A DNA stretch of 32,000 nt from contig DAOMZT010000002.1 of the NCBI GenBank assembly GCA_035400625.1, positions 1 through 32,000 of the forward strand. Reading direction: 5' to 3'. Numbering within the stretch: the first letter of the stretch is position 1; each line of letters begins with the position of its first letter. The notes under the pieces are model-generated. The model was not told where the DNA came from, did not search any database, and worked only from the letters and a program-made list of their open reading frames with translations. Of the stretch, positions 5,570-23,636 are shown in pieces. Source of the DNA: an archaeon (GTDB lineage Archaea; Iainarchaeota; Iainarchaeia; Iainarchaeales; CSSED10-239). A program made the translations under genes and the position numbers.

Positions 5570-5582
5570 TTGTCTTCACCAT

Positions 5583-6965: not shown

Positions 6966-7065
6966 TATTTATCCCGTTCCTTTTATGTTTATTAATGATA
7001 TTATATTTAAAGTATATTATATTTATATTTGTTATGTTATTTAATATAATTGTTGAGGGGAAAAA

Positions 7066-8106: not shown

Positions 8107-8124
8107 AAAATAAAATAAGAAATA

Positions 8125-8277
8125 CTACTTAGCTCTTTTACCTTTCTTTTTTACTCTAATCTTTACAGATTTACATTTTCTACAAAAAAGTGGTTTTTTA
8201 GGCGATCTCATTGTTGCATTACATGCCATACAAACCCACATGTTCTTTAATCTTCTTTGTTTTGCTGCATCATCCAT
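8125..8277 (-). CDS. rpl40e: 50S ribosomal protein L40e (50 aa; below the ORF-track cutoff)
   Basis: My translation of the minus strand: MDDAAKQRRLKNMWVCMACNATMRSPKKPLFCRKCKSVKIRVKKKGKRAK. It has the CxxC...CxxC zinc-ribbon pattern followed by a basic tail, as in archaeal L40e. Confidence 0.7.
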   Translation of the reverse strand: MDDAAKQRRLKNMWVCMACNATMRSPKKPLFCRKCKSVKIRVKKKGKRAK

Positions 8278-8390
8278 ATTATTTAACACCTTTAATAATT
8301 TCTAAAAATATTATATAATATTTATGATAAATAAACTTTATAAATAGTAGTATCTTATCTAAAAGCCATAAAAAATTAAGAAGTGGCTAA

Positions 8391-9473
8391 TTAATCAATT
8401 TTTTCAAAATGAAAAGTTTCGTGATTTAGTTTATATCCTGGTTCTGCCTGAAAATGTATTTCTACACCAAAATATCTTTGGAGATAATGTAATTGTTCTT
8501 GCATATTTAAAGCCAATAATTCAGGATATGTTGCGTTTTTATTTTTTGATCTATATCTTTTTATTTTATCTATTATTTTAGCTTCCATTTTTTTAATTAG
8601 ATTGTCATAATGTGTTCCTAATTGTTTTTGGAATTCATTTAAAGAGATGGAACTGTATTTTCCATTTTTTTCTTTAATCATTACACTATCTTTAATTACA
8701 GAAGAAAGCGAATATTTTCTTAACCAATTTTCTTTCATAGATTCTGAAATTTTATAGATTGTTCTTCCAGATATTCTTTTATTTGCTGTATCATAACCCA
8801 CAATCATATTGTAATCAGAATAAAGTGAATTTTTACGATAAGGACTTTTATTTAAATGATCATAAATTAATCTTATATATGTTCCTCTGATATCATTAAA
8901 TGAAGGTAGTACCTGGGTCATATTTATACCGGGGTGTGTATGGATAGCAAGTAATTTACTATCTGTTATTACTTTTTTGCCTTTTTGATATGTATAATGA
9001 GCATTATCTACTTTTTTAAAATCATAAAGTACAGAATCTGGTTTTCTTGTTCCTTCTTTAGAAACATCAAAAATCACTTCATTTTTACCGTCTAGTAAAA
9101 ATGTTCTTTCTAAATGTGGATCTTTAGAAAGGATATGCCTATCTAGTAGACCCCTGCGCTTACCATTTATTAGATATTTACTATTATATATTTGTTCAGA
9201 ATTTATTGGTGGACGAACCGAGCTTTTGATAGCCCTATAAGTATATCTTAAGTTTTTACGAAACATATATTGTTTTGCTACTGATATTTGAGAATTATTA
9301 GAGGTGGTGTGTTTATTTATGCGATATCGAAGTTTAGCATTAGATATCTTTCTTAAATCTGATTTTGATATATTTTGTGATCTAACCAAACCTCTTTTTG
9401 GTGCTCTTCTTAAAGTATATCTTAAATTCTTACGAAATATAAGCGGTTTGGTTACTGGTTTAACTATAGGCAT
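8391..9473 (-). CDS. hypothetical protein, family B paralog 2, with a JAMM/MPN+-like IHTHPG-x8-PSFND motif and a basic N-terminal leader
   Basis: LLAIHTHPGINMTQVLPSFNDI resembles HxH-x7-S-x2-D, but with 10-residue spacing. Internal repeat FRKNLRYTLRRAPKRG / FRKNLRYTYRAIKSSV. The C-terminus is paralogous to ORF 4544..5569. Confidence 0.5.
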   Translation of the reverse strand: MPIVKPVTKPLIFRKNLRYTLRRAPKRGLVRSQNISKSDLRKISNAKLRYRINKHTTSNNSQISVAKQYMFRKNLRYTYRAIKSSVRPPINSEQIYNSKYLINGKRRGLLDRHILSKDPHLERTFLLDGKNEVIFDVSKEGTRKPDSVLYDFKKVDNAHYTYQKGKKVITDSKLLAIHTHPGINMTQVLPSFNDIRGTYIRLIYDHLNKSPYRKNSLYSDYNMIVGYDTANKRISGRTIYKISESMKENWLRKYSLSSVIKDSVMIKEKNGKYSSISLNEFQKQLGTHYDNLIKKMEAKIIDKIKRYRSKNKNATYPELLALNMQEQLHYLQRYFGVEIHFQAEPGYKLNHETFHFEKID

Positions 9474-9631
9474 ATATTTAACACCAATAAAATTGTTAGC
9501 AAATAATTTTATAAATGGTGAACATAAGAAAAAAACTCAAAAATAGAATATATATAAATCTTTTTGTGCTTAAATATATATAGTTCTATTTTTTAGCCGA
9601 CCTTAAAAAATGGAAAAATATGTATAGATGT

Positions 9632-9705
9632 GCTTTGATAGTGTAGCCCGGTAATCACACTGGCCTTTCAAGCCAGTAACGCGGGTCCGAATCCCGCTCA
9701 GAGCA
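9632..9705 (+). tRNA. tRNA-Glu (anticodon UUC)
   Basis: 74 nt: acceptor GCTTTGA/TCAGAGC (one G-U pair), anticodon stem CTGGC/GCCAG with loop CTTTCAA, T arm GCGGG-TCCGAAT-CCCGC. Confidence 0.9.
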
Positions 9706-9765
9706 ATCAATTAATAAATAGTTTTGGAAATAATATAATAAGAAATGAAATAATAAAGTGATAAA

Positions 9766-9897
9766 ATGGGAACACGAAAAAAAGATAGCAGTAGATTTAA
9801 AAAAACCAGATCCAGAGAAAGATGGAAATGGAAAAAAAAGAAAATGAGAAGAAAGCAAAGACAAAGAAAATATTTAAGAAAGAGAGCAGCTACATAA
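9766..9897 (+). CDS. rpl41e: 50S ribosomal protein L41e-like (43 aa; below the ORF-track cutoff)
   Basis: MGTRKKDSSRFKKTRSRERWKWKKKKMRRKQRQRKYLRKRAAT. The core RWKWKKKKMRRKQRQRK aligns residue for residue with the eukaryotic eL41 pattern RAKWRKKRMRRLKRKRRK. Confidence 0.65.
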   Translation: MGTRKKDSSRFKKTRSRERWKWKKKKMRRKQRQRKYLRKRAAT

Positions 9898-9944
9898 ATG
9901 TAGCAATTTCTTTTCTTTATTTTTCTCTATTTCTAAAACATAAA

Positions 9945-9958
9945 CATCTATTTATAAA
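9945..9958 (+). promoter_or_regulatory. Candidate distal rRNA promoter (TATA-box element CATCTATTTATAAA)
   Basis: The same 14-mer recurs at 10046..10059. Both lie upstream of the 16S gene in the leader region. Confidence 0.4.
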
Positions 9959-10045
9959 CTAATTGTTCTTTCTTTAATTTATAATTTACAAAATTATGGT
10001 CTCTAATCATAAGAGTTAGAGAGAACCAAACGCCTAATCTTTGGG

Positions 10046-10059
10046 CATCTATTTATAAA
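10046..10059 (+). promoter_or_regulatory. Candidate proximal rRNA promoter (second copy of CATCTATTTATAAA)
   Basis: Exact repeat of 9945..9958, ~175 nt upstream of the mature 16S 5' end. Confidence 0.4.
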
Positions 10060-10128
10060 TATTTCTCTACCTATATTTCTATAACTACAAAGAATAAATT
10101 TCGACTTTGTTTTTTTGTAGGAATTCTT

Positions 10129-10137
10129 TTTGTGAGG
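10129..10137 (+). other. 5' strand of the putative pre-16S processing stem (pairs with 11781..11789)
   Basis: TTTGTGAGG at 10129..10137 is the exact reverse complement of CCTCACAAA at 11781..11789. The two strands flank the 16S, as expected for the archaeal processing helix. Adjacent bases extend the pairing imperfectly. Confidence 0.45.
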
Positions 10138-10234
10138 GTTCAAGCTGTTTTGAGTCTGATGTTAGGAGAAACATACAAGTGCGCAAAGGCAAAACTTTGT
10201 GTATGATTTTGTGTGCATTAACGATATAAAACCA

Positions 10235-11729
10235 ATTCCAGCTGATCCTGCTGGTGGATATCGCTATTGGAGTTTGACTAAGACATGCAAGTTTGAAAGT
10301 CTTAACTATGAGAGACTTTGGCAAACGGCTCAGTAACGCGTGGTCAACCTACCTTTTTGACAAGTTAATCTTGGGAAACTGAGGATAATGCTTGATAGGA
10401 AAACAAATCTGGAATGATTGTTTTTCCAAAGGTCTTACGATCATGTTTGTAAGATGCAAAAAGATGGGACTGCGTCAGATTAGGTCGTTGGCAGGGTAAT
10501 TGCCTACCAAGCCGAAGATCTGTACGGGCCTTGAGAGAGGGTGCCCGGAGAAGGAAACTGAGATAAGGTTCCTAGCCCTACGGGGTGCAGCAGTCGCGAA
10601 AATTTTACAATGCGGGAAACCGTGATAGAGAGACTCCAAGTGCCAGCAAAAACTGGCTTTTATATAGCTTAGATAGCTATGTGAATAAGGGGGGGGTAAT
10701 ATGCGTGCCAGCCGCCGCGGTAATACGCAATCCTCGAGTGGTATCCAGCATTATTTGGCTTAAAGCGTGTGTAGCTGGTTTATTAAGTCTTTTGTGAAAG
10801 CAGTGAGCCTAACTCATTGAATGGCAAAAGATACTGGTAGGCTAGAAATAGGGAGACGTTTAGGGTATTCCTAGAGTAGGAGTAGAATCTTAAGATACTA
10901 GGAAGACCACCTGTGGCGAAGGCGCTAAACGAGAACTAATTTGACAGTGAGACACGAAAGCTGGGGGCGCAACCCGGATTAGATACCCGGTTAGTCCCAG
11001 CTGTAAACGATGTGAATTAGGTGTTGGGTTAACTACGAGTTAATTCAGGGCCGAAGGGAAACCATTAAATTCACCGCCTGGGGAGTACAGTCGCAAGGCA
11101 GAAACTTAATGGAATTGGCGGGGGTGCACTACAAGGGGTGGATGCTGCGGTTTAATTGGATGAAACGCCAGATATCTTACCAGAACAGACAGCAAGATGA
11201 TGGTCAGTCTGAAGGGCTTACCTGATGCGCTGAGAGGTGCTGTATGGCCGTCGCCAGCTCGTACTGTGAAGCTTCCTGTTAACTCAGGTAACGGGCGAGA
11301 CCCATGCTATTAGTTGCTACTTTTTTTAGTAATAAGGAAAGGCACTCTAATAGGACTGCGTTGGTAACAATGAGGAAGGAATGGGCGAAGGCAGGTCTGT
11401 ATAGCCCGATTGCTCTGGGCAACACGCGGCATACAATGACTAGGACAATGAGTCTCTAACCCGAAAGGGAGTGGCAATCTCAGAAACCTAGCCGAAGTTC
11501 GGATTGAGGGTTGCAACTCACCCTCATGAAGTTGGAATCCCCAGTAATCGCGTGTCACTATCGCGCGGTGAATATGTCCCTGCGCCTTGCACACACCGCC
11601 CATCAAGCCAGTTGAGTAGAGTGTGGATGAACTCTAGCCTATTAAAGGTTAAAGTGATTCTATATTTTGCGAGACGGACTAAGTTGTAACAAGGTGTCCG
11701 TAGGGGAACCTGCGGACGGATCACCTCCT
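10235..11729 (+). rRNA. rrs: 16S (SSU) ribosomal RNA, archaeal type, ~1495 nt
   Basis: 5' ATTCCAGCTGATCCTGCTGG. Also GTGCCAGCCGCCGCGGTAATAC, GGATTAGATACCCGG, GCACACACCGCCCATCA, AAGTTGTAACAAGG. 3' end GGGGAACCTGCGGACGGATCACCTCCT. Confidence 0.95.
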
Positions 11730-11861
11730 ATTTTTAAATAAAGTGATTTATTTGAAAATATATAAAAATTTCTTCTAACACCTCACAAAGAAATATTTAT
11801 TTCTTTTTTTAATTAAACGTAAATTATTTTCTTTCTATCAGACTATATTTTTAAATTACCA

Positions 11862-11892
11862 TTTATATTTATTTCTTTAGTAAATTATATTA
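11862..11892 (+). promoter_or_regulatory. Repeated TATA-containing promoter module upstream of tRNA-Ala(CGC)
   Basis: TTTATATTTATTTCTTTAGTAAATTATATTA. Near-identical copies are at 12010..12040 and 12142..12170. The TATA element is ~34 nt upstream of the tRNA 5' end. Confidence 0.5.
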
Positions 11893-11895
11893 GTC

Positions 11896-11967
11896 GGGCT
11901 TCTAGTTCAATGGTAGAATATCTCCTTCGCATGGAGAAGGTTGCGAGTTCGAGTCTCGCGAAGTCCA
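11896..11967 (+). tRNA. tRNA-Ala (anticodon CGC)
   Basis: 72 nt: acceptor GGGCTTC/GAAGTCC with the G3:U70 Ala identity pair, anticodon stem TCTCC/GGAGA with loop TTCGCAT, T arm GCGAG-TTCGAGT-CTCGC. Confidence 0.9.
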
Positions 11968-12009
11968 TATTAACTTAAACTTTGATTTTAATTTCAACAA
12001 TTAGATTTG

Positions 12010-12040
12010 TTTATATTTATTTCTTTAGTTAATTATATTA
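12010..12040 (+). promoter_or_regulatory. Repeated promoter module, copy 2, upstream of tRNA-Ala(AGC)
   Basis: TTTATATTTATTTCTTTAGTTAATTATATTA. Together with the upstream TAGATTTG, it is shared with copy 3. Confidence 0.5.
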
Positions 12041-12042
12041 GA

Positions 12043-12114
12043 GGGCTTCTGGCTCAACGGTAGAGCACTTCCTTAGCAAGGAAGGGGTTGCGAGTTCGAA
12101 TCTCGCGAAGTCCA
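12043..12114 (+). tRNA. tRNA-Ala (anticodon AGC as encoded)
   Basis: 72 nt: acceptor GGGCTTC/GAAGTCC (G3:U70), anticodon stem CTTCC/GGAAG with loop TTAGCAA, giving A34-G35-C36. T arm GCGAG-TTCGAAT-CTCGC. Confidence 0.85.
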
Positions 12115-12141
12115 TTAACTTATATTTAAGAAATAGATTTG

Positions 12142-12170
12142 TTTATATTTATTTCTTTAGTTAATTATTA
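12142..12170 (+). promoter_or_regulatory. Repeated promoter module, copy 3, upstream of tRNA-Ala(UGC)
   Basis: TTTATATTTATTTCTTTAGTTAATTATTA, followed by a 35-nt leader containing the hairpin AGCAAAA..TTTTGCT before the tRNA. Confidence 0.45.
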
Positions 12171-12205
12171 TGGTAATCAAGCAAAAAAACATCTTATTTT
12201 GCTGA

Positions 12206-12277
12206 GGGCTCCTGGCTCAATGGTAGAGTACTTCCCTTGCACGGAAGGGGTTGCGAGTTCGAATCTCGCGGAGTCCA
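12206..12277 (+). tRNA. tRNA-Ala (anticodon UGC)
   Basis: 72 nt: acceptor GGGCTCC/GGAGTCC (G3:U70), anticodon stem CTTCC/GGAAG with loop CTTGCAC, T arm GCGAG-TTCGAAT-CTCGC. Confidence 0.9.
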
Positions 12278-13153: not shown

Positions 13154-13774
13154 TCAAATATTTAGTTTTTGTATAGATCTTTTTAGATTATTTCTGGCTT
13201 TTTGTTCATATTTTTTTCTGAATATTTTAGTGTTGTAAATATTTGGTTTATTTAAAAAATAGCAAAGTACTTTTAGTCGACCTTCTTTATATTTTTTTAA
13301 AGGCACCCAAGAATATTCTTTTATAATATTTTTTTCATATTTTTCAAATATTTTCCTAGATTGACCAAAAATACATATATCAATATCTTGTAATAATCTT
13401 TCATCTTTTTTTCTAGAAAAGCAATTATGTTTTGTAGAAAGAACTAGTGCTTCAACTTTATTTATTATCTTTATAGATAAATTTGCGTTCTTTAAAACAT
13501 TAGTCACAAATTCTGCAGATTTTTCTTCGTTATTATCCATTTTTGGATCATAGATAATATCGTGATACCAAATAGCAAGCTCTATTGAATCAAAATCATA
13601 TTTAGTATTTTTTTGTTTTTTTATAAAATTTAGTTCATTTAAACACATTCTTATATGTGATAAATTATGATAATGTCTTTTCTTAGAATAAAGTGTATCT
13701 AGCTTATTATATTCTGTAAAAGGATTGCTTTTTGCACCTATTTTTTTCCATAACTTTATAAATTTAGATTTCAT
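13154..13774 (-). CDS. HD-superfamily metal-dependent phosphohydrolase-like protein
   Basis: YHNLSHI ... AIWYHDIIYDP pattern (H...HD), as in small predicted HD hydrolases. Its start overlaps the stop of the CoaD-CoaE gene by 4 nt (ATGA). Confidence 0.55.
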   Translation of the reverse strand: MKSKFIKLWKKIGAKSNPFTEYNKLDTLYSKKRHYHNLSHIRMCLNELNFIKKQKNTKYDFDSIELAIWYHDIIYDPKMDNNEEKSAEFVTNVLKNANLSIKIINKVEALVLSTKHNCFSRKKDERLLQDIDICIFGQSRKIFEKYEKNIIKEYSWVPLKKYKEGRLKVLCYFLNKPNIYNTKIFRKKYEQKARNNLKRSIQKLNI

Positions 13775-14910
13775 TTTATTTTTAATTCTTTTATAATATC
13801 GTCAACTATTTTATTTAGGTTATCTTTATTTTCATTATAATCAACAGAATTATCATAAATCCAAAGTTTTCCGTGATTATATTTTTTAATTGCCTCTTCT
13901 AGGCTTTTTTTCTTCTGTGTATAATTTAATTGACTATTTAATCTTCTATTTATTTGTTCAATAGTTAATTCTCTAGAAAGCAATCTTTGTTTTTGTGTTT
14001 CTTTATCTACTTTGATAATTAATGTATTATTATTACTAAGGAAAGTAAGATTAGATTCTGCAATTAATGCTGCATTAATTATTATTAGCCCTTTCTTTCC
14101 ATATATTTCTTTTCTTAGTCTTACAAGTATTGGAGTATACATTATTTCATTTAATTGTTTTAATTTTTCATTATTATTAAATACTATCTCTCCAAGAATT
14201 TTTCTGTCTATTGTGCCATCTTGTTTCTTTATTTTCATCCCAAAAGTTTTAATTAGTTGATTTCTAATTTTTTCATATTTTTCATCTTTTAATTCTGAAA
14301 GAATCTTATGACTTATATGATCTAATTCTATGTTATGTGCTTCTACCCCTTTTTCCTTACATAGTTTTAGGATTTGTTCACATATAAATGATTTTCCACT
14401 TCCTATTTCTCCAGTTACTCCTAAAATATATTGATTAGATATTTTTCTTTCAATCTCTTGCTTAACCTCTAAGGTCACATAATCATGTACAAATCCTTGT
14501 TCTTTTTGAATGCTTTTTACCGCACTTGAACTTACATGAGCTAGTTCAGGCCTGGCAAAAAGAATAAATGTATCAATACCTAATTTTTGACTATCTCCTA
14601 CTTGATGTAAAATATTCTCATAATCAAAATCTGCAGAATTTCTTATTCCTTTAACTATAACATCTATATCATTTTCATAGGCAAAATCCACCAAAAGTCC
14701 TGAAAAAGACACAACCTTTACATTATCTAGCCTTGCTAATGCTTTTTTGGCAAGAGAAAACCTTTCTTCAAGAGTAAATAAATAGTTTTTGCTAGGATTG
14801 ATCCCAATTCCTACAACTACTTTATCAAAAACTTTAGCTGTTCTTTTTATTATATCTATATGTCCAAAAGTAATTGGATCTCCAGAGAATGCATATATTG
14901 CTGTAGTCAT
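13771..14910 (-). CDS. coaD/coaE: Bifunctional phosphopantetheine adenylyltransferase (bacterial CoaD type) / dephospho-CoA kinase (CoaE type)
   Basis: The N-domain AIYAFSGDPITFGHIDII...INPSKNYLFTLEER...VKGIRNSADFDYE...ISSSAVK is collinear with bacterial CoaD. The C-domain has the P-loop ILGVTGEIGSGKS, as in CoaE. Confidence 0.85.
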   Translation of the reverse strand: MTTAIYAFSGDPITFGHIDIIKRTAKVFDKVVVGIGINPSKNYLFTLEERFSLAKKALARLDNVKVVSFSGLLVDFAYENDIDVIVKGIRNSADFDYENILHQVGDSQKLGIDTFILFARPELAHVSSSAVKSIQKEQGFVHDYVTLEVKQEIERKISNQYILGVTGEIGSGKSFICEQILKLCKEKGVEAHNIELDHISHKILSELKDEKYEKIRNQLIKTFGMKIKKQDGTIDRKILGEIVFNNNEKLKQLNEIMYTPILVRLRKEIYGKKGLIIINAALIAESNLTFLSNNNTLIIKVDKETQKQRLLSRELTIEQINRRLNSQLNYTQKKKSLEEAIKKYNHGKLWIYDNSVDYNENKDNLNKIVDDIIKELKIK

Positions 14911-17660: not shown

Positions 17661-17785
17661 CCCTCCTTAGCATAGTGGTTAGTGCGTCCGGCTGTAGACT
17701 TTAGTAACACACTATTTTTGTTATTGTAAGATAGCAAAGAAAGGCAGTGACCGGAAGATCCCCAGTCCGAATCTGGGAGGAGGGA
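17661..17785 (+). tRNA. tRNA-Tyr (anticodon GUA) with a 52-nt canonical 37/38 intron (17698..17749)
   Basis: - Acceptor CCCTCCT/AGGAGGG, giving the archaeal/eukaryal Tyr identity pair C1:G72.
- D arm GCAT-AGTGGTTA-GTGC.
- Anticodon stem TCCGG/CCGGA with loop CTGTAG|intron|A.
- T arm CCCAG-TCCGAAT-CTGGG.
- Splice sites fall in a helix-bulge-helix: CTGT/GCAG central helix, 3-nt bulges, outer helix CTTT/AAAG. Confidence 0.9.
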
Positions 17786-17795
17786 ATCCGACTCC
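17758..17795 (+). repeat. Direct repeat copy 1 (tRNA-Tyr variable loop, T arm and acceptor 3' strand, plus 10 nt of flank)
   Basis: ATCCCCAGTCCGAATCTGGGAGGAGGGAATCCGACTCC. It recurs at 20480..20519 with a 2-nt insertion and 2 substitutions. The perfect core is 24 nt (17765..17788 = 20489..20512). Confidence 0.9.
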
Positions 17796-17892
17796 AAGTT
17801 GGCAGGAATAAGTTACGAGTTTTAAATACACGTATATTTAAAATCTTTACTACTATAATATATTATATATTAAAATTAATGGAGATTTATAT

Positions 17893-17964
17893 ATGAAGAA
17901 AAAAAATAAAAAAGACCCTTTAAAAAAAGGGAAAGTAGAAAGTTTAAAAGACCACTATGATTAA
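17893..17964 (+). CDS. 23-aa short ORF upstream of the radical SAM/SPASM gene (candidate substrate/precursor peptide)
   Basis: My translation: MKKKNKKDPLKKGKVESLKDHYD. GGAG at 17881..17884 sits 8 nt before the ATG. The stop is 20 nt before the rSAM start. Not in the ORF track because it is under 60 aa. Confidence 0.4.
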   Translation: MKKKNKKDPLKKGKVESLKDHYD

Positions 17965-17984
17965 TTCTAAAAATTAGATATATT

Positions 17985-19157
17985 ATGGTATCAAATATAA
18001 AAAGAGTATCTTTTGAGATTACTGGCAAATGTAATTTACACTGTTTTTATTGTTGTAGAGGTTATTTAAATAAAAAAGAAAAAATAGACACTGAAATTTC
18101 TACAACGGAAATAATTAAAATAATACGTGATGCAAGAAAAAAGAAATGTACATCCTTTCTTTTTACTGGCGGAGAGCCATTTGTTAAGAAAGATTTTAAT
18201 TTAATTCTACAAGAATGTAGTGGCTGTTTTGTAGAAGTTTATTCAAATGGCACATTAATCGCAAAGAAAAAAAATATAGAATTAATAAATAAATATATTA
18301 CTAAATTAACAGTTACTATTGATGGATTAGAATCTCACGATTTTTATAGAACAAATAGTAATTCTATTAAAATATTAAAAAACATAAAAAAGATTAAAAA
18401 AAATTGTGATGTACTAATAAAAATTAACACCTTATTAAATAAAAAATCAATAGATGATTTGCTTTGTCTTTATAAAAAATTAAAAGACGTTGGTGTAGAC
18501 GAATGGCACATAGATTTCCCTCAACTTAGAGGCCGACTTGCAGCATATAAAGGCCATTTTGCTGCAGATTATTCAAAAATAGGCATTGCATTAAGAAAAG
18601 TAATTATTGAATATTATAAGGATAAAAAACCATTTTACTTTAAAATATATAAAGTATTTAATTCAAAATTAAATAAAAACACAGCTTATTCAATTAATAT
18701 AAATGAGAACCCTTGTAGTTATAAAATAGACAAATGTATTTTCATTACCTCTGATAAAAAATATATTTTATGCCCATCAATACCAAGTCAAGATATTATT
18801 ATTGGAAAAGTAGATTTAAATAGTTATAACGACATTTTAATTAAAAAAACTAAATTAGATTTTAATAAAATTAAATATAGTGATTTAAAGGAATGTATAA
18901 ATTGTAGATATTTTAAATTGTGTTTAGGGGGGTGTAGAGGCGAAGCAAAGGTGCTTTCTAATTCGTTCATTAAACCAGATTTAAACGCTTGCTCTTTAAT
19001 GCACATTTCTGAAAAAGAAATATATCCATTTTTACCAAATAACATATCTTCTTTTTATATAAAAAGTATTGATTTTTCAAAGAGACACCCGAAATGGTTA
19101 AATAATTTAGATGAATTAAAAACTAAAACACAATTAAAATATAACGATTCTAAATAA
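17985..19157 (+). CDS. Radical SAM enzyme with a C-terminal SPASM (twin auxiliary 4Fe-4S) domain
   Basis: CNLHCFYC (CX3CX2C) at residues 16-23, and FTGGEPF. SPASM cysteines: NPCSYKIDKC, YILCPS, ECINCRYFKLCLGGCRG. Confidence 0.85.
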   Translation: MVSNIKRVSFEITGKCNLHCFYCCRGYLNKKEKIDTEISTTEIIKIIRDARKKKCTSFLFTGGEPFVKKDFNLILQECSGCFVEVYSNGTLIAKKKNIELINKYITKLTVTIDGLESHDFYRTNSNSIKILKNIKKIKKNCDVLIKINTLLNKKSIDDLLCLYKKLKDVGVDEWHIDFPQLRGRLAAYKGHFAADYSKIGIALRKVIIEYYKDKKPFYFKIYKVFNSKLNKNTAYSININENPCSYKIDKCIFITSDKKYILCPSIPSQDIIIGKVDLNSYNDILIKKTKLDFNKIKYSDLKECINCRYFKLCLGGCRGEAKVLSNSFIKPDLNACSLMHISEKEIYPFLPNNISSFYIKSIDFSKRHPKWLNNLDELKTKTQLKYNDSK

Positions 19158-19201
19158 ATGAATTTGTATATCTATTACATAAAATAATAAAAAAGAATAT
19201 T

Positions 19202-20281
19202 ATGAACTTAACAATAGAAGAGAGACTCAAACTTATTAAAGAAGTTGGAGAAGAAATAATTGGAGAAGAAGAATTAATTGAGCTTCTAAAATCCAATAAA
19301 CCTATTATTGCATATGACGGTTTTGAACCATCTGGTAGAATACATATCGCTCAAGGTCTAATGAGAGCAATAAATGTAAATAAACTATCAAAAGCAGGAA
19401 TTCATTTTAAGTTTTTGGTAGCAGATTGGTTTGCATTAATGAATAATAAAATGGACGGAGATTTAGAAAAAATAAAAATAGTTGGAGAATATTTTATTGA
19501 AGTTTGGAAAGCATCAGGAATGGATATGACTAATGTTGAGTTTTTGTGGGCTTCTGAGAATATGAATCAAGATTATTGGTTAATGGTTTTAAAAATTGCA
19601 AGATTAAATTCTGTTGTAAGAATAACAAGATGTTCTCAGATTATGGGTAGAACAGATAAAGAAGAATTAAATGCTGCACAAATATTTTATCCGTGTATGC
19701 AAGCTACAGATATATGGAATTTGAAAGCAGATATTGCTCAACTTGGGATGGACCAAAGAAAAGTAAACGTTCTTGCAAGAGAAACATTTCCAAAGCTTGG
19801 ATTAAAGAAGCCAATAGCTATACATCACCATATGCTTATGGGACTTACAGAACCAAAAATAGATGGGTTAGATGGAGCAGAAGCAACAATAGCAAAAAAG
19901 ATGTCCAAATCAAATCCAGATTCTGCAATATTTATGACTGATACTAAGGAAGAAATCGATAGGAAATTTAAGAAAGCTTATTGTCCTGAGGGAATAGTGA
20001 AAGATAACCCTGTTTTGGAATATTGTAAATATATTATATTCGAAAGAATAAATGAATTTAAAGTAGAAAGGTCCGAAAAATTTGGGGGAAATATTGTGTA
20101 TTATAGCTATGAAAACTTAGAAAAAGATTTTATAGAGAAAAGGCTTCATCCAATGGATTTAAAAGCATCAAGTTCGAAATATATTAATGAATTGTTAGAA
20201 CCTATAAGAAAGCACTTTGAAGAAAATCAAAATGCAAAAAGAATACAATGTATTGTAGAAAGTTATACAATTAAAAAATGA
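19202..20281 (+). CDS. tyrS: Tyrosyl-tRNA synthetase, archaeal type
   Basis: Class I signatures: PSGRIHIAQG (HIGH-like) and KMSKS (KKMSKSNP). Size and architecture match archaeal/eukaryal TyrRS. Confidence 0.9.
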   Translation: MNLTIEERLKLIKEVGEEIIGEEELIELLKSNKPIIAYDGFEPSGRIHIAQGLMRAINVNKLSKAGIHFKFLVADWFALMNNKMDGDLEKIKIVGEYFIEVWKASGMDMTNVEFLWASENMNQDYWLMVLKIARLNSVVRITRCSQIMGRTDKEELNAAQIFYPCMQATDIWNLKADIAQLGMDQRKVNVLARETFPKLGLKKPIAIHHHMLMGLTEPKIDGLDGAEATIAKKMSKSNPDSAIFMTDTKEEIDRKFKKAYCPEGIVKDNPVLEYCKYIIFERINEFKVERSEKFGGNIVYYSYENLEKDFIEKRLHPMDLKASSSKYINELLEPIRKHFEENQNAKRIQCIVESYTIKK

Positions 20282-20359
20282 TTTAAAATATATTTTATTT
20301 TTTTCTTGTGTTTATTATACTTTTATATTTTGGTATTACCTTCCTGTAACCTACATACA

Positions 20360-20473
20360 CTACACAAGCTACACTTTTATAAAAGCTATTAATCATAATA
20401 TTTATATAAACTAAAAGGAGTTGGTAAGAATGAAGGAGAAGTATCCACCAACTTCTAACAACGAACCAATAAC
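20360..20473 (+). repeat. Direct repeat R1 (114 nt): palindromic TATA box, second TATA-like box, hairpin enclosing an SD and ATG, and the first 15 codons of a short ORF
   Basis: Aligns with 21426..21538 at 101 of 114 columns by my hand count (12 substitutions, 1 gap). Contains CTTTTATAAAAG, ATATTTATATAAA, AAAGGAG and ATG at 20430. Confidence 0.9.
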
Positions 20474-20479
20474 CAGTAC

Positions 20480-20519
20480 ATCCCCAATGTCCGAATCTGG
20501 GAGGAGGGAATCTAACTCC
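20480..20519 (+). repeat. Direct repeat copy 2: decayed tRNA-Tyr 3'-end fragment (not a functional tRNA)
   Basis: ATCCCCAATGTCCGAATCTGGGAGGAGGGAATCTAACTCC. The 2-nt insertion destroys the 5' strand of the T stem. No D or anticodon arm lies upstream. Homology ends at the stop codon of the convergent DUF429 gene. Confidence 0.85.
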
Positions 20520-21322
20520 TACTTATATTCAAAAATAGTTTTTTGAGATAAAATTGTTTTTAGTTCTTTTTTTTGATAATCAAATACAGGCGTTAAAATA
20601 TAACCACTTTTTAAATCGCCTAATACTTCACAATTATTTGGTTTCGCCCAAACATAATAAGAAAGATATGCACAAAATATTCCATCTAATGTGTCTTCAT
20701 AATCTTTAAGTTTTTGTGCTTTTAATGAGTTTAAATCTACTGATAAAATTTCTTTAGATAAGATTAATGATGGATTACTTTTTTCTAAATTTTTTAATGC
20801 ATCAATATATTTTCTAAATTCAATATACCTAAATTCATAATCTCTTTTTGGTTTAGATTTATATTTTAATATTTTTTTTAAATTAAATAAAACTACCATA
20901 GATGGATGTGGATAAACTTCAAAAAACTTCTTTGATTCTTCAAATTGATTAATATAAGGGTCTTGTTTAAATCCTTCTTTTTCTAAAACCTTAGAAATTT
21001 CTTCTCCTCTTATTGTACCAGTCCAAAGACTTAATCTTTGTCTATTTGATGGATGTGCTCCTGCATCAAATTGTCTAAATAATTTTCCAGTTAATTCTTC
21101 TGGTATTCTTCTTCCAGTTTCATTAGGGACTATAAGTGGTGCATCAATTGCAATTAATGCTGGTTTATTTTTTGTGTGTTTTTTAATATAATTTATAATT
21201 TCTTCATTAGACATTAAACTATCAGCACAAATTAATTTTGCTTGTTTTTTATTACCTTCTAATATGGCTACACCAGATCCGTTTTTTGTAGACCAAGCAA
21301 GGTCAATTCCTACGAAATACAT
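20519..21322 (-). CDS. DUF429-like predicted RNase H-fold nuclease
   Basis: N-terminal FVGIDLAWS..NGSGVAIL, then LIAIDAPLIVPNETGRR, EVYPHPS, YK.KP.R and YEDTLDGIFCAYLS. Together these match the pattern I recall for DUF429 proteins. Confidence 0.55.
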   Translation of the reverse strand: MYFVGIDLAWSTKNGSGVAILEGNKKQAKLICADSLMSNEEIINYIKKHTKNKPALIAIDAPLIVPNETGRRIPEELTGKLFRQFDAGAHPSNRQRLSLWTGTIRGEEISKVLEKEGFKQDPYINQFEESKKFFEVYPHPSMVVLFNLKKILKYKSKPKRDYEFRYIEFRKYIDALKNLEKSNPSLILSKEILSVDLNSLKAQKLKDYEDTLDGIFCAYLSYYVWAKPNNCEVLGDLKSGYILTPVFDYQKKELKTILSQKTIFEYK

Positions 21323-21425
21323 ATAATATCATTATTTTTTATTTTATATTACTCAAAAATAACTATATATCCAAATATTAAAAAAGGTTTCTTAATGCCG
21401 ATTTATATATTATAGCATACACCCC

Positions 21426-21538
21426 CTACATAAGTTACACTTTTATAAAAGCTATCAATCAAAATATTTGTATAACCTAAAGGTGTTGATAAGAATGAAG
21501 GAGATGTATCTATCAACTTCTAACAATGAACCAATAAC
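21426..21538 (+). repeat. Direct repeat R2 (113 nt), second copy of the promoter/hairpin/short-ORF module
   Basis: See R1. Here the module leads into short ORF 21495..21593 and then family A paralog 3. Confidence 0.9.
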
Positions 21539-22700: not shown

Positions 22701-23636
22701 ATGAGCTATTTATCTAAACTTAAAAGAAATGGAAAAACCTATTATTACCTTGTAGAGAACATTTCTGTTTCAAAGGGAAAGAGAAAGCAGATTAGAAAGT
22801 ATATTGGAACAACAAAACCTACTGAAAAACAATTATCCTTACAATTATCTAAATTTGAAAAAGAAATTGAATCTAAAAGAAAGAAAATACAAGGATTTGA
22901 GTATTTAACAAGAGATGAAATTAAAGAAATAGATTCTATAAATGCAAACTTTTGGAAAAAATATAATGCTTTAACAAAAACAGAAAAAAAAGGTTTTTGG
23001 AATAATTTCATTAATGTCTTTGTATATAATACTAATTCTATTGAAGGCTCAACATTAACCATAAAAGAAGTTGAATTGCTATTATCTGAAAACATATCTC
23101 CAAATAGACCTTTAGAAGATGTATTAGAAACAAAATCTGCAAAAAAAGCAATTGATTATATTTTAGGATATAAAGGAGACTTATCTATCGATTTAATTAC
23201 AGAATTACATAAAATTTATTTTAAAGAAAGCTTTCCAGATATTGCAGGAAAATTAAAAAGATTAAACAATAGAATAATCGGTTCTAAGTTTGATACAACA
23301 CCAAAAGAATTGGTCTTAACCGATTTAAAGATATTTATAGAAAACTATAATAAACTTAAAAAAAAACTACATCCAATAGAACTTTCAGCATGGGCACATT
23401 GGGCTTTTGTAAAGATACATCCTTTTCAGGATGGGAACGGAAGAATATCAAGATTAATAATGAATTTTATTCTTCATAAAAACAAATATGCATTAATTGA
23501 CATTAAGACAAAAGAAAAGCAAGCATATTTTAATGCACTTGAAAGATGTAATTATATTAATAATGGAAAACCATTGGCACAAAGACTAGTTAGAAGATTC
23601 AAAAAACAATATTTAAATATTTTTTCTGAATTATAA
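22701..23636 (+). CDS. fic: Fic-domain protein (AMPylase family) with an N-terminal auto-inhibitory motif
   Basis: Fic motif HPFQDGNGRISR. The upstream TNSIEG fits the (S/T)xxxE(G/N) inhibitory helix motif of class II Fic proteins. Confidence 0.85.
   Translation: MSYLSKLKRNGKTYYYLVENISVSKGKRKQIRKYIGTTKPTEKQLSLQLSKFEKEIESKRKKIQGFEYLTRDEIKEIDSINANFWKKYNALTKTEKKGFWNNFINVFVYNTNSIEGSTLTIKEVELLLSENISPNRPLEDVLETKSAKKAIDYILGYKGDLSIDLITELHKIYFKESFPDIAGKLKRLNNRIIGSKFDTTPKELVLTDLKIFIENYNKLKKKLHPIELSAWAHWAFVKIHPFQDGNGRISRLIMNFILHKNKYALIDIKTKEKQAYFNALERCNYINNGKPLAQRLVRRFKKQYLNIFSEL

What the first reader, a model, noticed from the sequence alone, without database searches (positions are those of the whole stretch)
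17820..19157. Unannotated 23-aa peptide ORF directly upstream of a stand-alone radical SAM/SPASM enzyme: candidate peptide-modification (RiPP-like) pair
- **Peptide:** ATG 17893 is preceded by GGAG with 8-nt spacing and encodes MKKKNKKDPLKKGKVESLKDHYD. It ends 20 nt before the rSAM start.
- **Enzyme:** it has CX3CX2C at its extreme N-terminus and a complete 7-Cys SPASM domain.
- **Precedent:** characterised rSAM/SPASM enzymes next to a short ORF (PqqE/PqqA, MftC/MftA, sactipeptide and ranthipeptide maturases) modify that peptide. PqqA and MftA chemistry both centres on a Tyr near the C-terminus, and this peptide has a single Tyr at residue 22 of 23.
- **Against some subtypes:** the peptide has no Cys, so thioether chemistry is unlikely. 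I see no PqqD-like recognition element fused to the enzyme, so recognition would have to differ.
- **Possible operator:** a 9-bp inverted repeat TTTTAAATA-n6-TATTTAAAA (17820..17843) lies upstream.
Basis: partly seen in the sequence, partly recalled or inferred. Interest (0 to 1): 0.7.

Follow-up and report, generated by a model that had tools for sequence, protein, structure and literature searches.

The report
Tyrosine-coded peptide, radical enzyme, TyrRS cassette
The 23-codon gene is real and conserved, and with its radical SAM enzyme and the neighbouring tyrosyl-tRNA synthetase it forms a small inserted cassette; related cassettes pair a "His-X" peptide with the synthetase for amino acid X, which points to a new family of synthetase-directed modified peptides.

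Summary
**Observation: confirmed.**
- ORF 17893-17964 and the rSAM/SPASM gene 17985-19157 are exactly as described.
- The short ORF is present next to the rSAM in all 15 distinct orthologous loci (DPANN archaea).
- Its conserved core is DP[LIV][RK]..E[ST][LV][RK]DHYD-stop.
- pN/pS is 0.18 in its own frame, against 1.05 and 1.61 in the other two frames.

- The pair is not stand-alone. TyrRS is adjacent in 12 of the 13 orthologous loci with enough flank, and on either side.
- In the window, peptide-rSAM-TyrRS (2.7 kb) lies between an intron-containing tRNA-Tyr and a 24-nt exact repeat of that tRNA's 3' end. This is an integration footprint.

**Distant relatives.** Relatives of the rSAM (26-35% identity; DPANN, Patescibacteria, and a mobile element) also sit near aaRS genes. 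Their short peptides carry a conserved His followed by the cognate residue:

| Neighbouring aaRS | Peptide motif |
|---|---|
| TyrRS | H-Y |
| CysRS | H-C |
| LeuRS | H-L |
| TrpRS | H-W |

**Best reading.** This is a RiPP-like precursor and its maturase. The product is directed at the matching aaRS, and the linked aaRS most likely provides immunity. That is the logic of the tiarins, but with different enzymes.

**Not supported.** The GGAG "SD" and the inverted-repeat "operator" are not conserved. PqqA/MftA membership is not met.

**Not shown.** The chemistry and the inhibition itself are inferred.

The parts
17661..17785 (+). tRNA-Tyr (anticodon GTA) with a 52-nt intron at the canonical 37/38 position
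   Evidence: ARAGORN run with the intron option. The default run and Rfam at gathering threshold both missed it. It has the C1-G72 acceptor pair typical of archaeal tRNA-Tyr, read directly from the sequence.
17765..17800 (+). Left copy of an att-like direct repeat: the 3' end of tRNA-Tyr plus about 12 nt downstream. The exact core is 17765-17788.
   Evidence: A 24-nt exact match, GTCCGAATCTGGGAGGAGGGAATC, to 20489-20512. Identity is 89% over 36 nt (family D13). Similarity extends over about 50 nt in alignment A4.
17820..17843 (.). 9-bp inverted repeat TTTTAAATA-n6-TATTTAAAA. Each arm resembles an archaeal TATA box.
   Evidence: Present. There are 11 such repeats in the window against about 5.8 expected, and the chance of one in this 107-nt spacer is about 3%. 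It is not conserved in the other loci. Its function is unsupported.
17864..17871 (+). TATA-like octamer TATATATT, 29 nt upstream of the peptide ATG. Probable promoter of a leaderless or near-leaderless peptide-rSAM(-TyrRS) transcript.
   Evidence: In 11 of 15 orthologous loci a near-consensus TTTAWAWA box starts at -29 or -28. No other offset is enriched. The window copy has 2 mismatches. The inference rests on the known archaeal TATA-to-start spacing.
17893..17964 (+). Precursor-like peptide gene, 23 aa: MKKKNKKDPLKKGKVESLKDHYD. It has one Tyr, directly after an invariant His.
   Evidence: Found in all 15 distinct orthologous loci with an invariant DHYD C-terminus. pN/pS is 0.18 in this frame only. 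No Pfam or NCBIfam match.
17985..19157 (+). Radical SAM/SPASM enzyme, 390 aa, with no RRE. Probable maturase of the peptide.
   Evidence: PF04055 match. No NCBIfam equivalog cut-off is reached. CX3CX2C plus 7 invariant SPASM Cys. AlphaFold2 model with mean pLDDT 90.5. Foldseek top hits are SkfB, SuiB, PqqE, CteB and anSME. About 17 orthologues at 52-63% identity, those that carry a taxon name being DPANN.
19202..20281 (+). Tyrosyl-tRNA synthetase, 359 aa; third gene of the module.
   Evidence: NF006330 scores 384 bits against a 220-bit cut-off. TyrRS is adjacent to the peptide-rSAM pair in 12 of the 13 orthologous loci with enough flank, either upstream or downstream.
20347..20473 (+). 127-nt repeat, copy 1, ending exactly at the att-like repeat. 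It starts a 41-aa ORF (from 20421) that reads through the repeat.
   Evidence: 84-88% identical to 21413-21538. Similarity stops at 20473/20474. No family match for the ORF. Meaning unknown.
20489..20524 (+). Right copy of the att-like direct repeat (a fragment of the tRNA-Tyr 3' end), 208 nt after the TyrRS stop.
   Evidence: Together with the left copy it brackets 17789-20488, which holds the peptide, rSAM and TyrRS genes. No integrase lies inside.
21413..21538 (+). Second copy of the 127-nt repeat, without the tRNA-derived part.

Best explanation
The 23-aa ORF is a genuine gene for a short precursor-like peptide, and the adjacent RRE-less radical SAM/SPASM enzyme modifies it at or around the invariant C-terminal His-Tyr-Asp.

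**Module structure.**
- Peptide, enzyme and the neighbouring tyrosyl-tRNA synthetase form one three-gene module.
- In this genome the module was inserted at the 3' end of a tRNA-Tyr gene.

**Family context.**
- The module belongs to a wider, undescribed set of rSAM/SPASM systems in DPANN archaea, Patescibacteria and at least one integrative mobile element.
- In these systems a conserved His in the peptide is followed by the amino acid that the linked aminoacyl-tRNA synthetase charges.

**Most likely mechanism (inferred, by analogy with tiarins).**
- The matured peptide, or a fragment of it, presents the Tyr side chain to TyrRS and inhibits sensitive TyrRS enzymes.
- The co-inherited TyrRS is the insensitive copy that protects the producer.

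**Expression (inferred).**
- A TATA box about 29 nt upstream gives a leaderless peptide mRNA.
- The rSAM is translated by coupling to the peptide ORF.

**Shown:** the peptide is under purifying selection; the peptide-rSAM-TyrRS linkage; the repeat-bracketed cassette; the His-X/aaRS correspondence in four aaRS types.

**Inferred:** that the rSAM acts on the peptide; the chemistry; inhibition and immunity.
For: **Peptide is a real gene.**
- Present in 15 of 15 loci; pN/pS is 0.18 in its frame against 1.05 and 1.61; its frame relative to the rSAM varies.

**Enzyme is a peptide-maturase type.**
- Full SPASM cysteine set.
- Nearest solved folds are SkfB, SuiB, PqqE, CteB and anSME.
- No non-peptide equivalog family is matched.

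**TyrRS linkage.**
- TyrRS is adjacent in 12 of the 13 orthologous loci with enough flank, in two gene orders, while no other window neighbour is shared.
- The adjacent TyrRS genes fall into three deep clades (40-51% identity between clades), whereas the rSAMs are 54-77% identical across those clades.

**Mobility together with the aaRS.**
- Window: a 24-nt exact repeat of the tRNA-Tyr 3' end brackets peptide-rSAM-TyrRS.
- L025: a 124-aa LeuRS N-terminal fragment, 91% identical to the full LeuRS, lies on the other side of the TA-peptide-rSAM genes.
- L026-31: the cluster with TrpRS lies between an integrase/excisionase and Mob_Pre.

**His-X rule.** The five distant loci were picked without knowledge of their context.

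| aaRS | Peptide motif |
|---|---|
| TyrRS | ...DHYD |
| CysRS (547 bits) | ..KGHC[GT]DD, two loci |
| LeuRS (981 bits) | ..KGHLAD.. |
| TrpRS (350 bits) | ..MAHWNND.. |

**Precedent.** In tiarins the residue next to a conserved modified residue matches the aaRS encoded in the gene cluster, and that aaRS is proposed to give immunity (10.64898/2025.12.02.691738).
Against: - No biochemical data exist. That the rSAM modifies the peptide is inferred from adjacency, co-conservation and enzyme class.
- The His-X/aaRS rule rests on only four aaRS types.
- CysRS is 3-4 genes away, not adjacent.
- In the HisRS-linked locus L024 no motif peptide was found. The only candidate is a doubtful one, MVLKRSHGY, on the opposite strand.
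- One orthologue (L014) has the peptide and rSAM but no adjacent TyrRS.
- In tiarin producers a second, housekeeping aaRS always exists. Here I could not check whether the archaeon has another TyrRS. The linked TyrRS looks like a normal full-length enzyme and may be the only copy.
- No exporter, protease or acetyltransferase gene lies in the 2.7-kb module.
- The conserved His precedes X, so a free alpha-amine on X, as needed by known aminoacyl-adenylate mimics, would require further processing.
Confidence: 0.55

Rival explanations
1. The modified peptide (or the rSAM) works with the synthetase rather than against it. It could be a regulator or cofactor of TyrRS, or TyrRS/Tyr-tRNA could take part in a tRNA-dependent biosynthetic step. 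Under this reading the linkage reflects cooperation, not immunity.
For: - It explains the same linkage data equally well: the aaRS match, co-mobility, and the tRNA-Tyr next to the module in the window.
- In small DPANN/CPR genomes the linked aaRS may be the only copy.
- The tiarin authors list tRNA-dependent biosynthesis as the alternative reason for an aaRS in a gene cluster.
Against: - The peptide already encodes residue X, so no tRNA-dependent addition of X is needed.
- No PEARL/LanB-like or other aminoacyl-tRNA-using enzyme lies in the module.
- In L026 the cluster with TrpRS rides on an integrative mobilisable element. That fits a weapon with its immunity gene better than a housekeeping regulator.
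Confidence: 0.2
2. The short ORF is a cis-acting regulatory leader peptide: a uORF that senses Tyr or charged tRNA-Tyr and controls expression of the downstream rSAM, and of TyrRS in the window.
For: - It lies immediately upstream of, or overlapping, the rSAM start in all Tyr-type loci.
- It contains one codon for the amino acid of the neighbouring aaRS.
- In the Patescibacteria loci a terminator-like hairpin lies between the short ORF and the rSAM (sequence).
Against: - In 10 of the 12 TyrRS-linked loci, TyrRS lies upstream of the ORF and so cannot be controlled by it.
- In L026 the peptide gene is the last gene of the operon, after TrpRS. It has its own strong SD and a terminator, which excludes a leader role there.
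- A 17-residue core under strong purifying selection, with an invariant His before X, is not what attenuator leaders show.
- A hairpin after a precursor gene is also the usual RiPP arrangement.
Confidence: 0.1
3. This is a PqqA/MftA-like precursor of a tyrosine-derived redox cofactor made by the rSAM.
For: - The peptide is short (23-30 aa) with an invariant Tyr near the C-terminus, next to an rSAM/SPASM.
- PqqE is among the structural neighbours.
Against: - The PqqE and MftC models are far below their cut-offs.
- There is no PqqD/MftB, either fused or nearby.
- There is no E-x3-Y or C-terminal GVY motif.
- No further cofactor-pathway genes lie in the module.
- In related systems the Tyr position is Cys, Leu or Trp and tracks the neighbouring aaRS. 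That is incompatible with Tyr-specific cofactor chemistry.
Confidence: 0.08
4. The ORF is a chance reading frame in AT-rich spacer DNA, and the TyrRS adjacency is inherited gene order with no functional meaning.
For: - The genome is 29% G+C.
- Short ORFs are abundant: 95 ORFs of at least 20 aa in 9 kb.
Against: - The codon-position pattern and pN/pS of 0.18 are seen in one frame only.
- The ORF is present in 15 of 15 loci at 52-63% rSAM identity to the window enzyme.
- The linkage persists across three deep TyrRS clades and two gene orders, while other neighbours differ.
- Five of five distant relatives, sampled blind to context, have an aaRS within 4 genes.
Confidence: 0.02

Closest known systems
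Tiarins (trifolitoxin-like RiPP inhibitors of aminoacyl-tRNA synthetases; bioRxiv 10.64898/2025.12.02.691738)
   Same: - A short ribosomal precursor in which one residue, next to a conserved residue, matches the specificity of an aaRS encoded beside the biosynthetic genes.
- A family-wide "one scaffold, many aaRS" logic.
- The linked aaRS is interpreted as immunity.
   Different: - The enzymes are unrelated. Tiarins use the TfxB/TfxC FMN-dependent dehydrogenases with RRE domains, often with YcaO. Here there is a single RRE-less radical SAM/SPASM enzyme.
- The conserved neighbour is a His before X here, not a Gln after X.
- No GNAT or exporter is present.
- The hosts are DPANN/CPR.
- A duplicate housekeeping aaRS has not been shown.
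- The tiarin text contains no occurrence of "radical" or "SPASM".
RRE-independent rSAM/SPASM maturases acting directly on a peptide or protein (anSME; SPASM/twitch RiPP maturases SuiB, CteB, SkfB, PqqE)
   Same: - CX3CX2C plus a 7-Cys SPASM domain.
- A full-length sequence match to anSME (4k37, E=8e-13).
- Foldseek TM-scores of 0.56-0.66 to SkfB, SuiB, CteB, PqqE and anSME.
- As in anSME, there is no N-terminal RRE.
   Different: - Identity to all of these is below 20%.
- No NCBIfam equivalog cut-off is reached.
- The family-specific insert D-E-W-H-I-D-F-P-Q-L-R-G-R-L between the core and the SPASM domain is invariant in the orthologues.
- The substrate peptide has no Cys (so no thioether) and no sulfatase motif.
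Three-residue cyclophane (triceptide) and His-Xaa-Ser type rSAM/SPASM systems
   Same: - The enzyme class is the same, and the targets are short motifs built on an aromatic or His residue.
- H-Y-D, H-L-A and H-W-N formally fit an aromatic-X-X triad with the specificity residue in the middle. This rests on my own knowledge of the class and was not tested.
   Different: - HxsC4, YhhB, DynA and WgkB models score 47-59 bits against cut-offs of 445-650.
- One Cys-type peptide has Gly at the third position (H-C-G), which has no C-beta.
- No repeats of the motif are present.
- aaRS linkage is not a feature of those families.
PqqA/PqqE and MftA/MftC
   Same: A very short precursor (23-30 aa) with a functionally central Tyr near the C-terminus, next to an rSAM/SPASM enzyme.
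   Different: - No PqqD/MftB recognition element.
- The defining peptide motifs are absent.
- Model scores are far below cut-off.
- No downstream pathway genes.
- Residue X varies with the aaRS in relatives.

Membership tests
Radical SAM / SPASM superfamily | CX3CX2C cluster motif in a radical SAM core | tested here: met
   C16, C20 and C23. PF04055 E=2.5e-14. The three Cys are invariant in 28 relatives.
Radical SAM / SPASM superfamily | C-terminal 7-Cys SPASM motif (C-x9-15-G-x4-C ... C-x2-C-x5-C-x3-C ... C) | tested here: met
   C244, C263, C304, C307, C313, C317 and C336 are invariant. The window protein has K in place of the motif Gly. Pfam PF13186 itself did not reach E<=0.01 for the window protein, but it is recorded for orthologue P0002 and for many relatives.
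Radical SAM / SPASM superfamily | Fold like solved SPASM/twitch enzymes | tested here: met
   Model with mean pLDDT 90.5. Foldseek E=1e-14 to 1e-11 against SkfB, SuiB, PqqE, CteB and anSME.
RiPP precursor/maturase pair (generic) | Short conserved ORF co-inherited with the maturase | tested here: met
   15 of 15 loci; pN/pS 0.18.
RiPP precursor/maturase pair (generic) | RiPP recognition element (PqqD-like), fused or adjacent | tested here: not met
   No PF05402 in the rSAM or its neighbours. The enzyme starts at the rSAM core.
RiPP precursor/maturase pair (generic) | Enzyme modifies the peptide | not testable with these tools
   Needs co-expression and mass spectrometry.
PqqE/PqqA | TIGR02109 equivalog score; PqqD partner; E-x3-Y in the peptide | tested here: not met
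   PqqE is not among the 25 best matches listed for the window protein, the lowest of which scores 47 bits, against a cut-off of 381. Best E-value among family members is 9e-25. No PqqD. The peptide has E-x5-Y.
MftC/MftA (mycofactocin) | TIGR03962 equivalog score; MftB partner; C-terminal ...GVY | tested here: not met
   Not among the 25 best matches listed for the window protein. Best E-value among family members is 6e-22. The peptide ends DHYD.
Anaerobic sulfatase-maturating enzyme | TIGR03942 equivalog score; sulfatase substrate | tested here: not met
   53.7 bits against a cut-off of 349. It is the closest solved sequence, but only at E=8e-13.
Heme/cofactor rSAMs (AhbD, NirJ, MoaA) | Equivalog cut-offs | tested here: not met
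   AhbD 84 against 500; NirJ 62 against 515; MoaA 65 against 284.
Tiarins | TfxB/TfxC FMN-dependent dehydrogenase pair | tested here: not met
   The module holds only the peptide, rSAM and TyrRS genes. None of the neighbours scanned with Pfam matches such a domain.
Tiarins | Conserved Gln preceded by the specificity residue | tested here: not met
   No Gln in the core. Instead an invariant His precedes the specificity residue.
Tiarins | Specificity residue equals the specificity of the cluster-encoded aaRS | tested here: met
   Y/TyrRS, C/CysRS, L/LeuRS and W/TrpRS. HisRS locus unresolved.
Tiarins | Second (housekeeping) aaRS copy elsewhere in the genome | not testable with these tools
   Only 32 kb of the genome is available. 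The source contig is 813 kb long and could not be read.
tRNA-targeting integrated element | Direct repeat of the tRNA 3' end bracketing the inserted DNA | tested here: met
   24-nt exact and about 50-nt imperfect repeat at 17765-17800 and 20489-20524.
tRNA-targeting integrated element | Integrase gene within or beside the element | tested here: not met
   None between the repeats. The flanking genes are DUF2666 and DUF429. A 41-aa ORF crossing the right repeat has no family match.

The most novel reading that the evidence does not exclude
A second, enzymatically unrelated "programmable" family of ribosomal peptides is directed at aminoacyl-tRNA synthetases.
- An RRE-less radical SAM/SPASM enzyme matures a His-X peptide.
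- X sets which synthetase is hit.
- The peptide, enzyme and an insensitive synthetase travel together as a tiny mobile cassette.
- The cassette can integrate at tRNA genes or recombine into the resident synthetase gene.
- It spreads among ultra-small DPANN archaea, CPR bacteria and mobile elements of other bacteria. In reduced genomes it may replace the housekeeping synthetase.
Probability: 0.4. Interest if true: 0.9.

Novelty: new variant of a known kind. Interest (0 to 1): 0.8.

Why it matters
**If the reading holds, it would give:**
- A sequence rule (the residue after the conserved His) that predicts which aminoacyl-tRNA synthetase a natural product targets. This would parallel the rule just proposed for tiarins, while having arisen independently and using radical chemistry.
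- A minimal three-gene system (about 2.7 kb) that is directly testable by co-expression.
- A first indication that DPANN archaea and CPR bacteria make, and exchange, translation-directed modified peptides. These are organisms thought to have almost no secondary metabolism.
- A mechanism, co-transfer with an inhibitor, that could help explain the frequent horizontal replacement of synthetase genes.

**Even the minimal result is new.** A conserved unannotated 23-30-aa gene tied to an rSAM and to TyrRS adds a missing gene to these genomes. It also corrects the 421-aa "extended" rSAM gene models in public data, which are alternative-frame artefacts of the peptide ORF.

Tried and rejected
- **In-frame N-terminal extension.** Five database orthologues of 421-424 aa carry a K/R-rich N-terminal extension. 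It is the peptide ORF read in another frame. That frame has pN/pS of about 1 or higher, and its ATG lies 10 nt upstream of the peptide ATG, probably upstream of the transcript start.
- **Programmed frameshift or readthrough fusing peptide and enzyme.** Rejected, because the frame relation differs between loci (0, +1, +2).
- **GGAG as a conserved ribosome-binding site.** Not present in the other loci.
- **Inverted repeat as an operator.** Weak statistics and no conservation.
- **tRNA detection.** Default ARAGORN and Rfam at gathering threshold missed tRNA-Tyr. It was found only with the intron option.
- **Motif peptide in the HisRS-linked locus L024.** None convincing was found.
- **Searches for more family members that gave nothing useful.** The viral contig scan found none. 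The plasmid search gave only 26-28% identical rSAMs outside the family. One of these is an ordinary RiPP-like cluster beside tuf in Agathobacter, with a peptide lacking the His-X motif.
- **Repeats flanking the module in other Tyr-type loci.** None, except dispersed repeats in L008 and L018.
- **Literature.** Six full-text searches found no description of an rSAM/aaRS-linked peptide family. The library does not cover all journals.
Full report
**Setting.**
- The window is 29% G+C and archaeal. It carries an archaeal 16S rRNA at 10235-11729 followed by three tRNA-Ala genes.
- The database entry identical to the rSAM is labelled only "archaeon", and several close relatives are labelled Pacearchaeota or Nanoarchaeia, that is DPANN.
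- The surrounding genes are ordinary chromosomal ones: a FEN1-like nuclease, pyruvate kinase, a DEAD helicase, PPAT/CoaE and Fic.

**1. The observation.**
  - GGAG at 17881-17884, then 8 nt, then ATG at 17893.
  - The peptide MKKKNKKDPLKKGKVESLKDHYD, with the stop at 17962-17964.
  - A 20-nt gap to the rSAM ATG at 17985.
  - A 390-aa protein with C16-x3-C20-x2-C23.
- The seven SPASM cysteines (C244, C263, C304, C307, C313, C317, C336) are invariant in an alignment that reaches 26% identity.
- No PqqD-like domain is present.
- The inverted repeat at 17820-17843 exists, but its statistics are weak. There are 11 such repeats in the window against about 5.8 in Markov simulations, and about 3% of simulated 107-nt spacers contain one.

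**2. Is the short ORF a gene? Yes.**
- The rSAM has only about 17 orthologues (52-63% identity) among 5.8 billion proteins, followed by a drop below 35%.
- I fetched their DNA. In all 15 distinct loci that include the 5' flank, a short ORF ends next to the rSAM start. Examples:
  - MEKQPLKKKMEDPLRKNKKESLRDHYD
  - MKKEAKKKQKDPLRKGKKETLRDHYD
  - MENKVTSSDSPIQEDPLREDGSESLRDHYD
  - MESEESEQSVFEDPLRDGCESLRDHYD
  - MESKIKILEDPLRKTGFESLRDHYDQ
- The conserved part is DP[LIV][RK]-x4/5-E[ST][LV][RK]DHYD. The Lys-rich N-terminus is not conserved.
- Over the 16-codon core of 14 distinct sequences, entropy at codon positions 1/2/3 is 0.48/0.30/1.01.
- pN/pS is 0.18 in the peptide frame, against 1.05 and 1.61 in the other two frames. 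The four DHYD codons vary only at synonymous third positions.
- The ORF's frame relative to the rSAM differs between loci. The peptide itself is therefore what selection preserves.
- The 421-424-aa "extended" rSAMs in the databases are the peptide ORF read in the wrong frame.
- The peptides match no Pfam or NCBIfam model.

**3. Expression signals.**
- GGAG is unique to the window.
- Instead, a near-consensus archaeal TATA box (TTTAWAWA) starts at -29 or -28 from the peptide ATG in 11 of 15 loci, and no other offset is enriched. Given the usual archaeal TATA-to-start distance, this implies a leaderless or near-leaderless peptide mRNA. That is an inference.
- The window has a weaker TATATATT at 17864-17871.
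- The peptide stop lies from 20 nt upstream of the rSAM start to 11 nt overlapping it. In several loci the rSAM ATG is formed by the Tyr-Asp codons (TATGAC).
- In 6 of 15 loci there is no ATG, GTG or TTG for the rSAM after the peptide stop. This suggests termination-reinitiation coupling, but it remains unexplained.

**4. The enzyme.**
- It reaches no NCBIfam equivalog cut-off:

| Model | Score (bits) | Cut-off (bits) |
|---|---|---|
| AhbD | 84 | 500 |
| anSME | 54 | 349 |
| MoaA | 65 | 284 |
| WgkB | 59 | 650 |
| DynA | 47 | 450 |

- The closest solved sequence over the full length is anSME (E=8e-13).
- An AlphaFold2 model (mean pLDDT 90.5) is most similar to SkfB, SuiB, PqqE, CteB and anSME (TM-scores 0.56-0.66). 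All of these act on peptides or proteins.
- A family-specific segment, DEWHIDFPQLRGRL, between the core and the SPASM domain is the most conserved part.

**5. The pair is part of a module with TyrRS.**
- The next gene, 19202-20281, is a bona fide TyrRS (NF006330, 384 bits against a cut-off of 220).
- TyrRS is adjacent in 12 of the 13 orthologous loci with enough flank. It lies upstream in ten, and downstream in L003 as in the window. None of the other window neighbours recurs. L014 is the exception.
- The adjacent TyrRS genes fall into three deep clades, 40-51% identical between clades:
  - The window's clade is nearest to eukaryote-type TyrRS structures (395 bits).
  - Clade B is nearest to Pyrococcus TyrRS (448 bits).
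- By contrast, the rSAMs are 54-77% identical across all loci.
- The peptide-rSAM pair is therefore more conserved than the synthetase it sits beside. That fits spread of the module, or rapid turnover of the synthetase, better than passive synteny.

**6. In the window the module is an insertion.**
- ARAGORN with introns allowed finds tRNA-Tyr(GTA) at 17661-17785 with a 52-nt intron.
- The last 21 nt of this tRNA plus 3 nt (GTCCGAATCTGGGAGGAGGGAATC, 17765-17788) recur exactly at 20489-20512, 208 nt after the TyrRS stop. Imperfect similarity extends over about 50 nt.
- For this G+C-rich 24-mer in a 29% G+C window, a chance match is negligible.
- The repeats bracket 17789-20488, which holds the peptide, rSAM and TyrRS genes. 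This is the classical footprint of integration into a tRNA 3' end.
- No integrase lies inside.
- A 127-nt sequence abutting the right repeat recurs at 21413-21538 without the tRNA part. This is unexplained.

**7. The wider family links rSAM, His-X peptide and cognate aaRS.**
- An exhaustive profile search found 115 representatives at E<1e-30. The nearest share the architecture at 26-35% identity. The few that carry taxon names are from Nanoarchaeota, Patescibacteria, "archaeon" and one Lachnospiraceae bacterium.
All five have an aaRS gene within four genes:

| Locus | aaRS and position | Short ORF |
|---|---|---|
| L024 | HisRS-like (263 bits, cut-off 287), immediately upstream | none convincing |
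| L025 | archaeal LeuRS (981 bits), immediately downstream | MKSKIKAKGFREILKGHLADCAPD |
| L022 (no taxon label) | CysRS (547 bits), 3 genes away | MCIKGHCTDD |
| L023 (Patescibacteria) | CysRS (partial, Pfam only), 4 genes away | MVLKGHCGDD |
| L026-31 | TrpRS (350 bits), in the same operon | MSKEEKIKILFGKCATEVEGELPLMAHWNNDSGCRI |

- aaRS identities are, except the cut L023 CysRS, which has only the precomputed Pfam families. The short ORFs have good ribosome-binding sites.
- Aligned with ...SL[RK]DHYD, all peptides share hydrophobic-[KRM]-[GDA]-His-X-(0-2 residues)-Asp.
- X is Tyr, Cys, Leu or Trp, which is exactly the amino acid of the linked synthetase.
- With background frequencies of roughly 3.5%, 1.5%, 9.5% and 1.2%, the joint chance is about 1e-6.
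- In L024 I found no convincing peptide.

**8. The aaRS travels with the system.**
- L026-31 is a cluster (a 299-aa protein, the rSAM, a second rSAM, a 376-aa protein, TrpRS and the peptide) lying between an integrase/excisionase and a Mob_Pre relaxase. It is seen on at least 24 contigs.
- In L025, a 124-aa N-terminal LeuRS fragment, 91% identical to the full LeuRS, lies on the far side of a PIN/RHH pair, the peptide and the rSAM. This is a recombination footprint.
- The window cassette is a third case.

**9. Mechanism.**
- The only published system with the same logic that I could find is the tiarins (bioRxiv 10.64898/2025.12.02.691738).
  - In those RiPPs the residue next to a conserved, modified Gln equals the specificity of the aaRS in the gene cluster.
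  - Trifolitoxin is shown there to be a Trojan-horse ArgRS inhibitor.
  - The cluster aaRS is proposed as the immunity determinant.
  - That family uses TfxB/TfxC flavoenzymes, and radical SAM enzymes are not mentioned.
- By analogy, I propose that the rSAM modifies the His-Tyr(-Asp) region, that the product presents Tyr to TyrRS and blocks sensitive enzymes, and that the cassette TyrRS is insensitive.
- The chemistry is unknown. A cross-link involving the His imidazole and the neighbouring residues is one possibility, since H-Y-D, H-L-A and H-W-N formally resemble triceptide triads. However, H-C-G in L023 has no C-beta at the third position.

**Rivals.**
- A cooperative role of the aaRS. I cannot exclude this, especially if the linked TyrRS is the only copy.
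- A regulatory leader peptide. This is contradicted by gene order in most loci, and by L026, where the peptide gene is last in the operon.
- A PqqA/MftA-type cofactor. This is contradicted by failed membership tests and by the variable X.

**10. Novelty and limits.**
- Six literature searches found no description of an rSAM-based, aaRS-linked peptide family. The library is incomplete, so prior description cannot be excluded.
- The generalisation rests on five blind-sampled contexts beyond the Tyr group.
- No biochemical step is shown.

Noticed in passing
window 20347-20473 and 21413-21538: A 127-nt sequence (84-88% identical) occurs twice, 1066 nt apart. The first copy ends exactly where the tRNA-Tyr-derived repeat begins. 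Both copies start a 41-aa ORF (MKE[KM]Y..TSNNEPIT). The first ORF (starting at 20421) reads through the att-like core, which is reminiscent of a split SSV-type integrase N-fragment, but there is no family match.
   Followed up: partly
L004, L008, L011, L015, L016, L021 (junction of peptide stop and rSAM): In 6 of 15 orthologous loci the rSAM reading frame has no ATG, GTG or TTG between the peptide stop and the first conserved residues. Four of them have an in-frame ATG only 10 nt upstream of the peptide ATG. L018 has a TTG overlapping the TGA stop. This suggests reinitiation at near-cognate codons.
   Followed up: partly
L025 2302-2691 versus 5388-8075: A 124-aa N-terminal fragment of LeuRS, 91% identical to the full-length LeuRS downstream, is separated from it by a PIN/RHH toxin-antitoxin pair, the His-Leu peptide and the rSAM. 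It looks like the scar of an incoming cassette recombining with the resident LeuRS.
   Followed up: partly
window 19202-20281: The nearest solved relatives of the window's TyrRS are eukaryote-type enzymes (8zmi/7sc6 at 395 bits; Plasmodium and Leishmania at about 355 bits), not archaeal ones (P. horikoshii 258 bits, M. jannaschii 194 bits). The TyrRS next to the same module in L001 is Pyrococcus-like (448 bits).
   Followed up: partly
window 10235-12277: The 16S rRNA is followed by three tandem tRNA-Ala genes (CGC, AGC, TGC), each with a repeated upstream spacer, and there is no 23S rRNA in the window. A tRNA-Ala with an A34 (AGC) anticodon is unusual for archaea.
   Followed up: no
L022 5217-6317 and L026 5058-5945: The Cys-type and Trp-type clusters each carry a second, different radical SAM gene directly after the family rSAM. 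In L022 it is closest to the QhpD/PapB thioether-forming maturases (about 150 bits, below cut-off).
   Followed up: no
L008 2372-2427 / 6072-6127 and L018: Dispersed 26-56-nt exact repeats flank the TyrRS-peptide-rSAM module in two related loci. Further copies lie elsewhere in the locus, so they may be a repeat family rather than att sites.
   Followed up: no
L024 5958-6746: A DTD2-type D-aminoacyl-tRNA deacylase (PF04414) lies four genes from the HisRS-rSAM pair. The only candidate short ORF there is MVLKRSHGY on the opposite strand (4450-4421).
   Followed up: partly
L032 (Agathobacter rectalis NZ_CP143948.1, locus 6208-10370): An unrelated rSAM (26-28% identical) has a 35-aa upstream ORF (MFNLEELSLEFVKISELKTSKNLFGPVMYGTGVRM), an MFS transporter and a GNAT, and sits directly after the rpsL-rpsG-fusA-tuf operon. 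The record is labelled a plasmid although it carries rpoC and ribosomal protein genes.
   Followed up: no
window 22701-23636 and 13771-14910: A Fic/DOC-domain protein with an N-terminal coiled-coil lies 2.2 kb beyond the cassette. There is also a fused PPAT-like cytidylyltransferase plus dephospho-CoA kinase gene.
   Followed up: no
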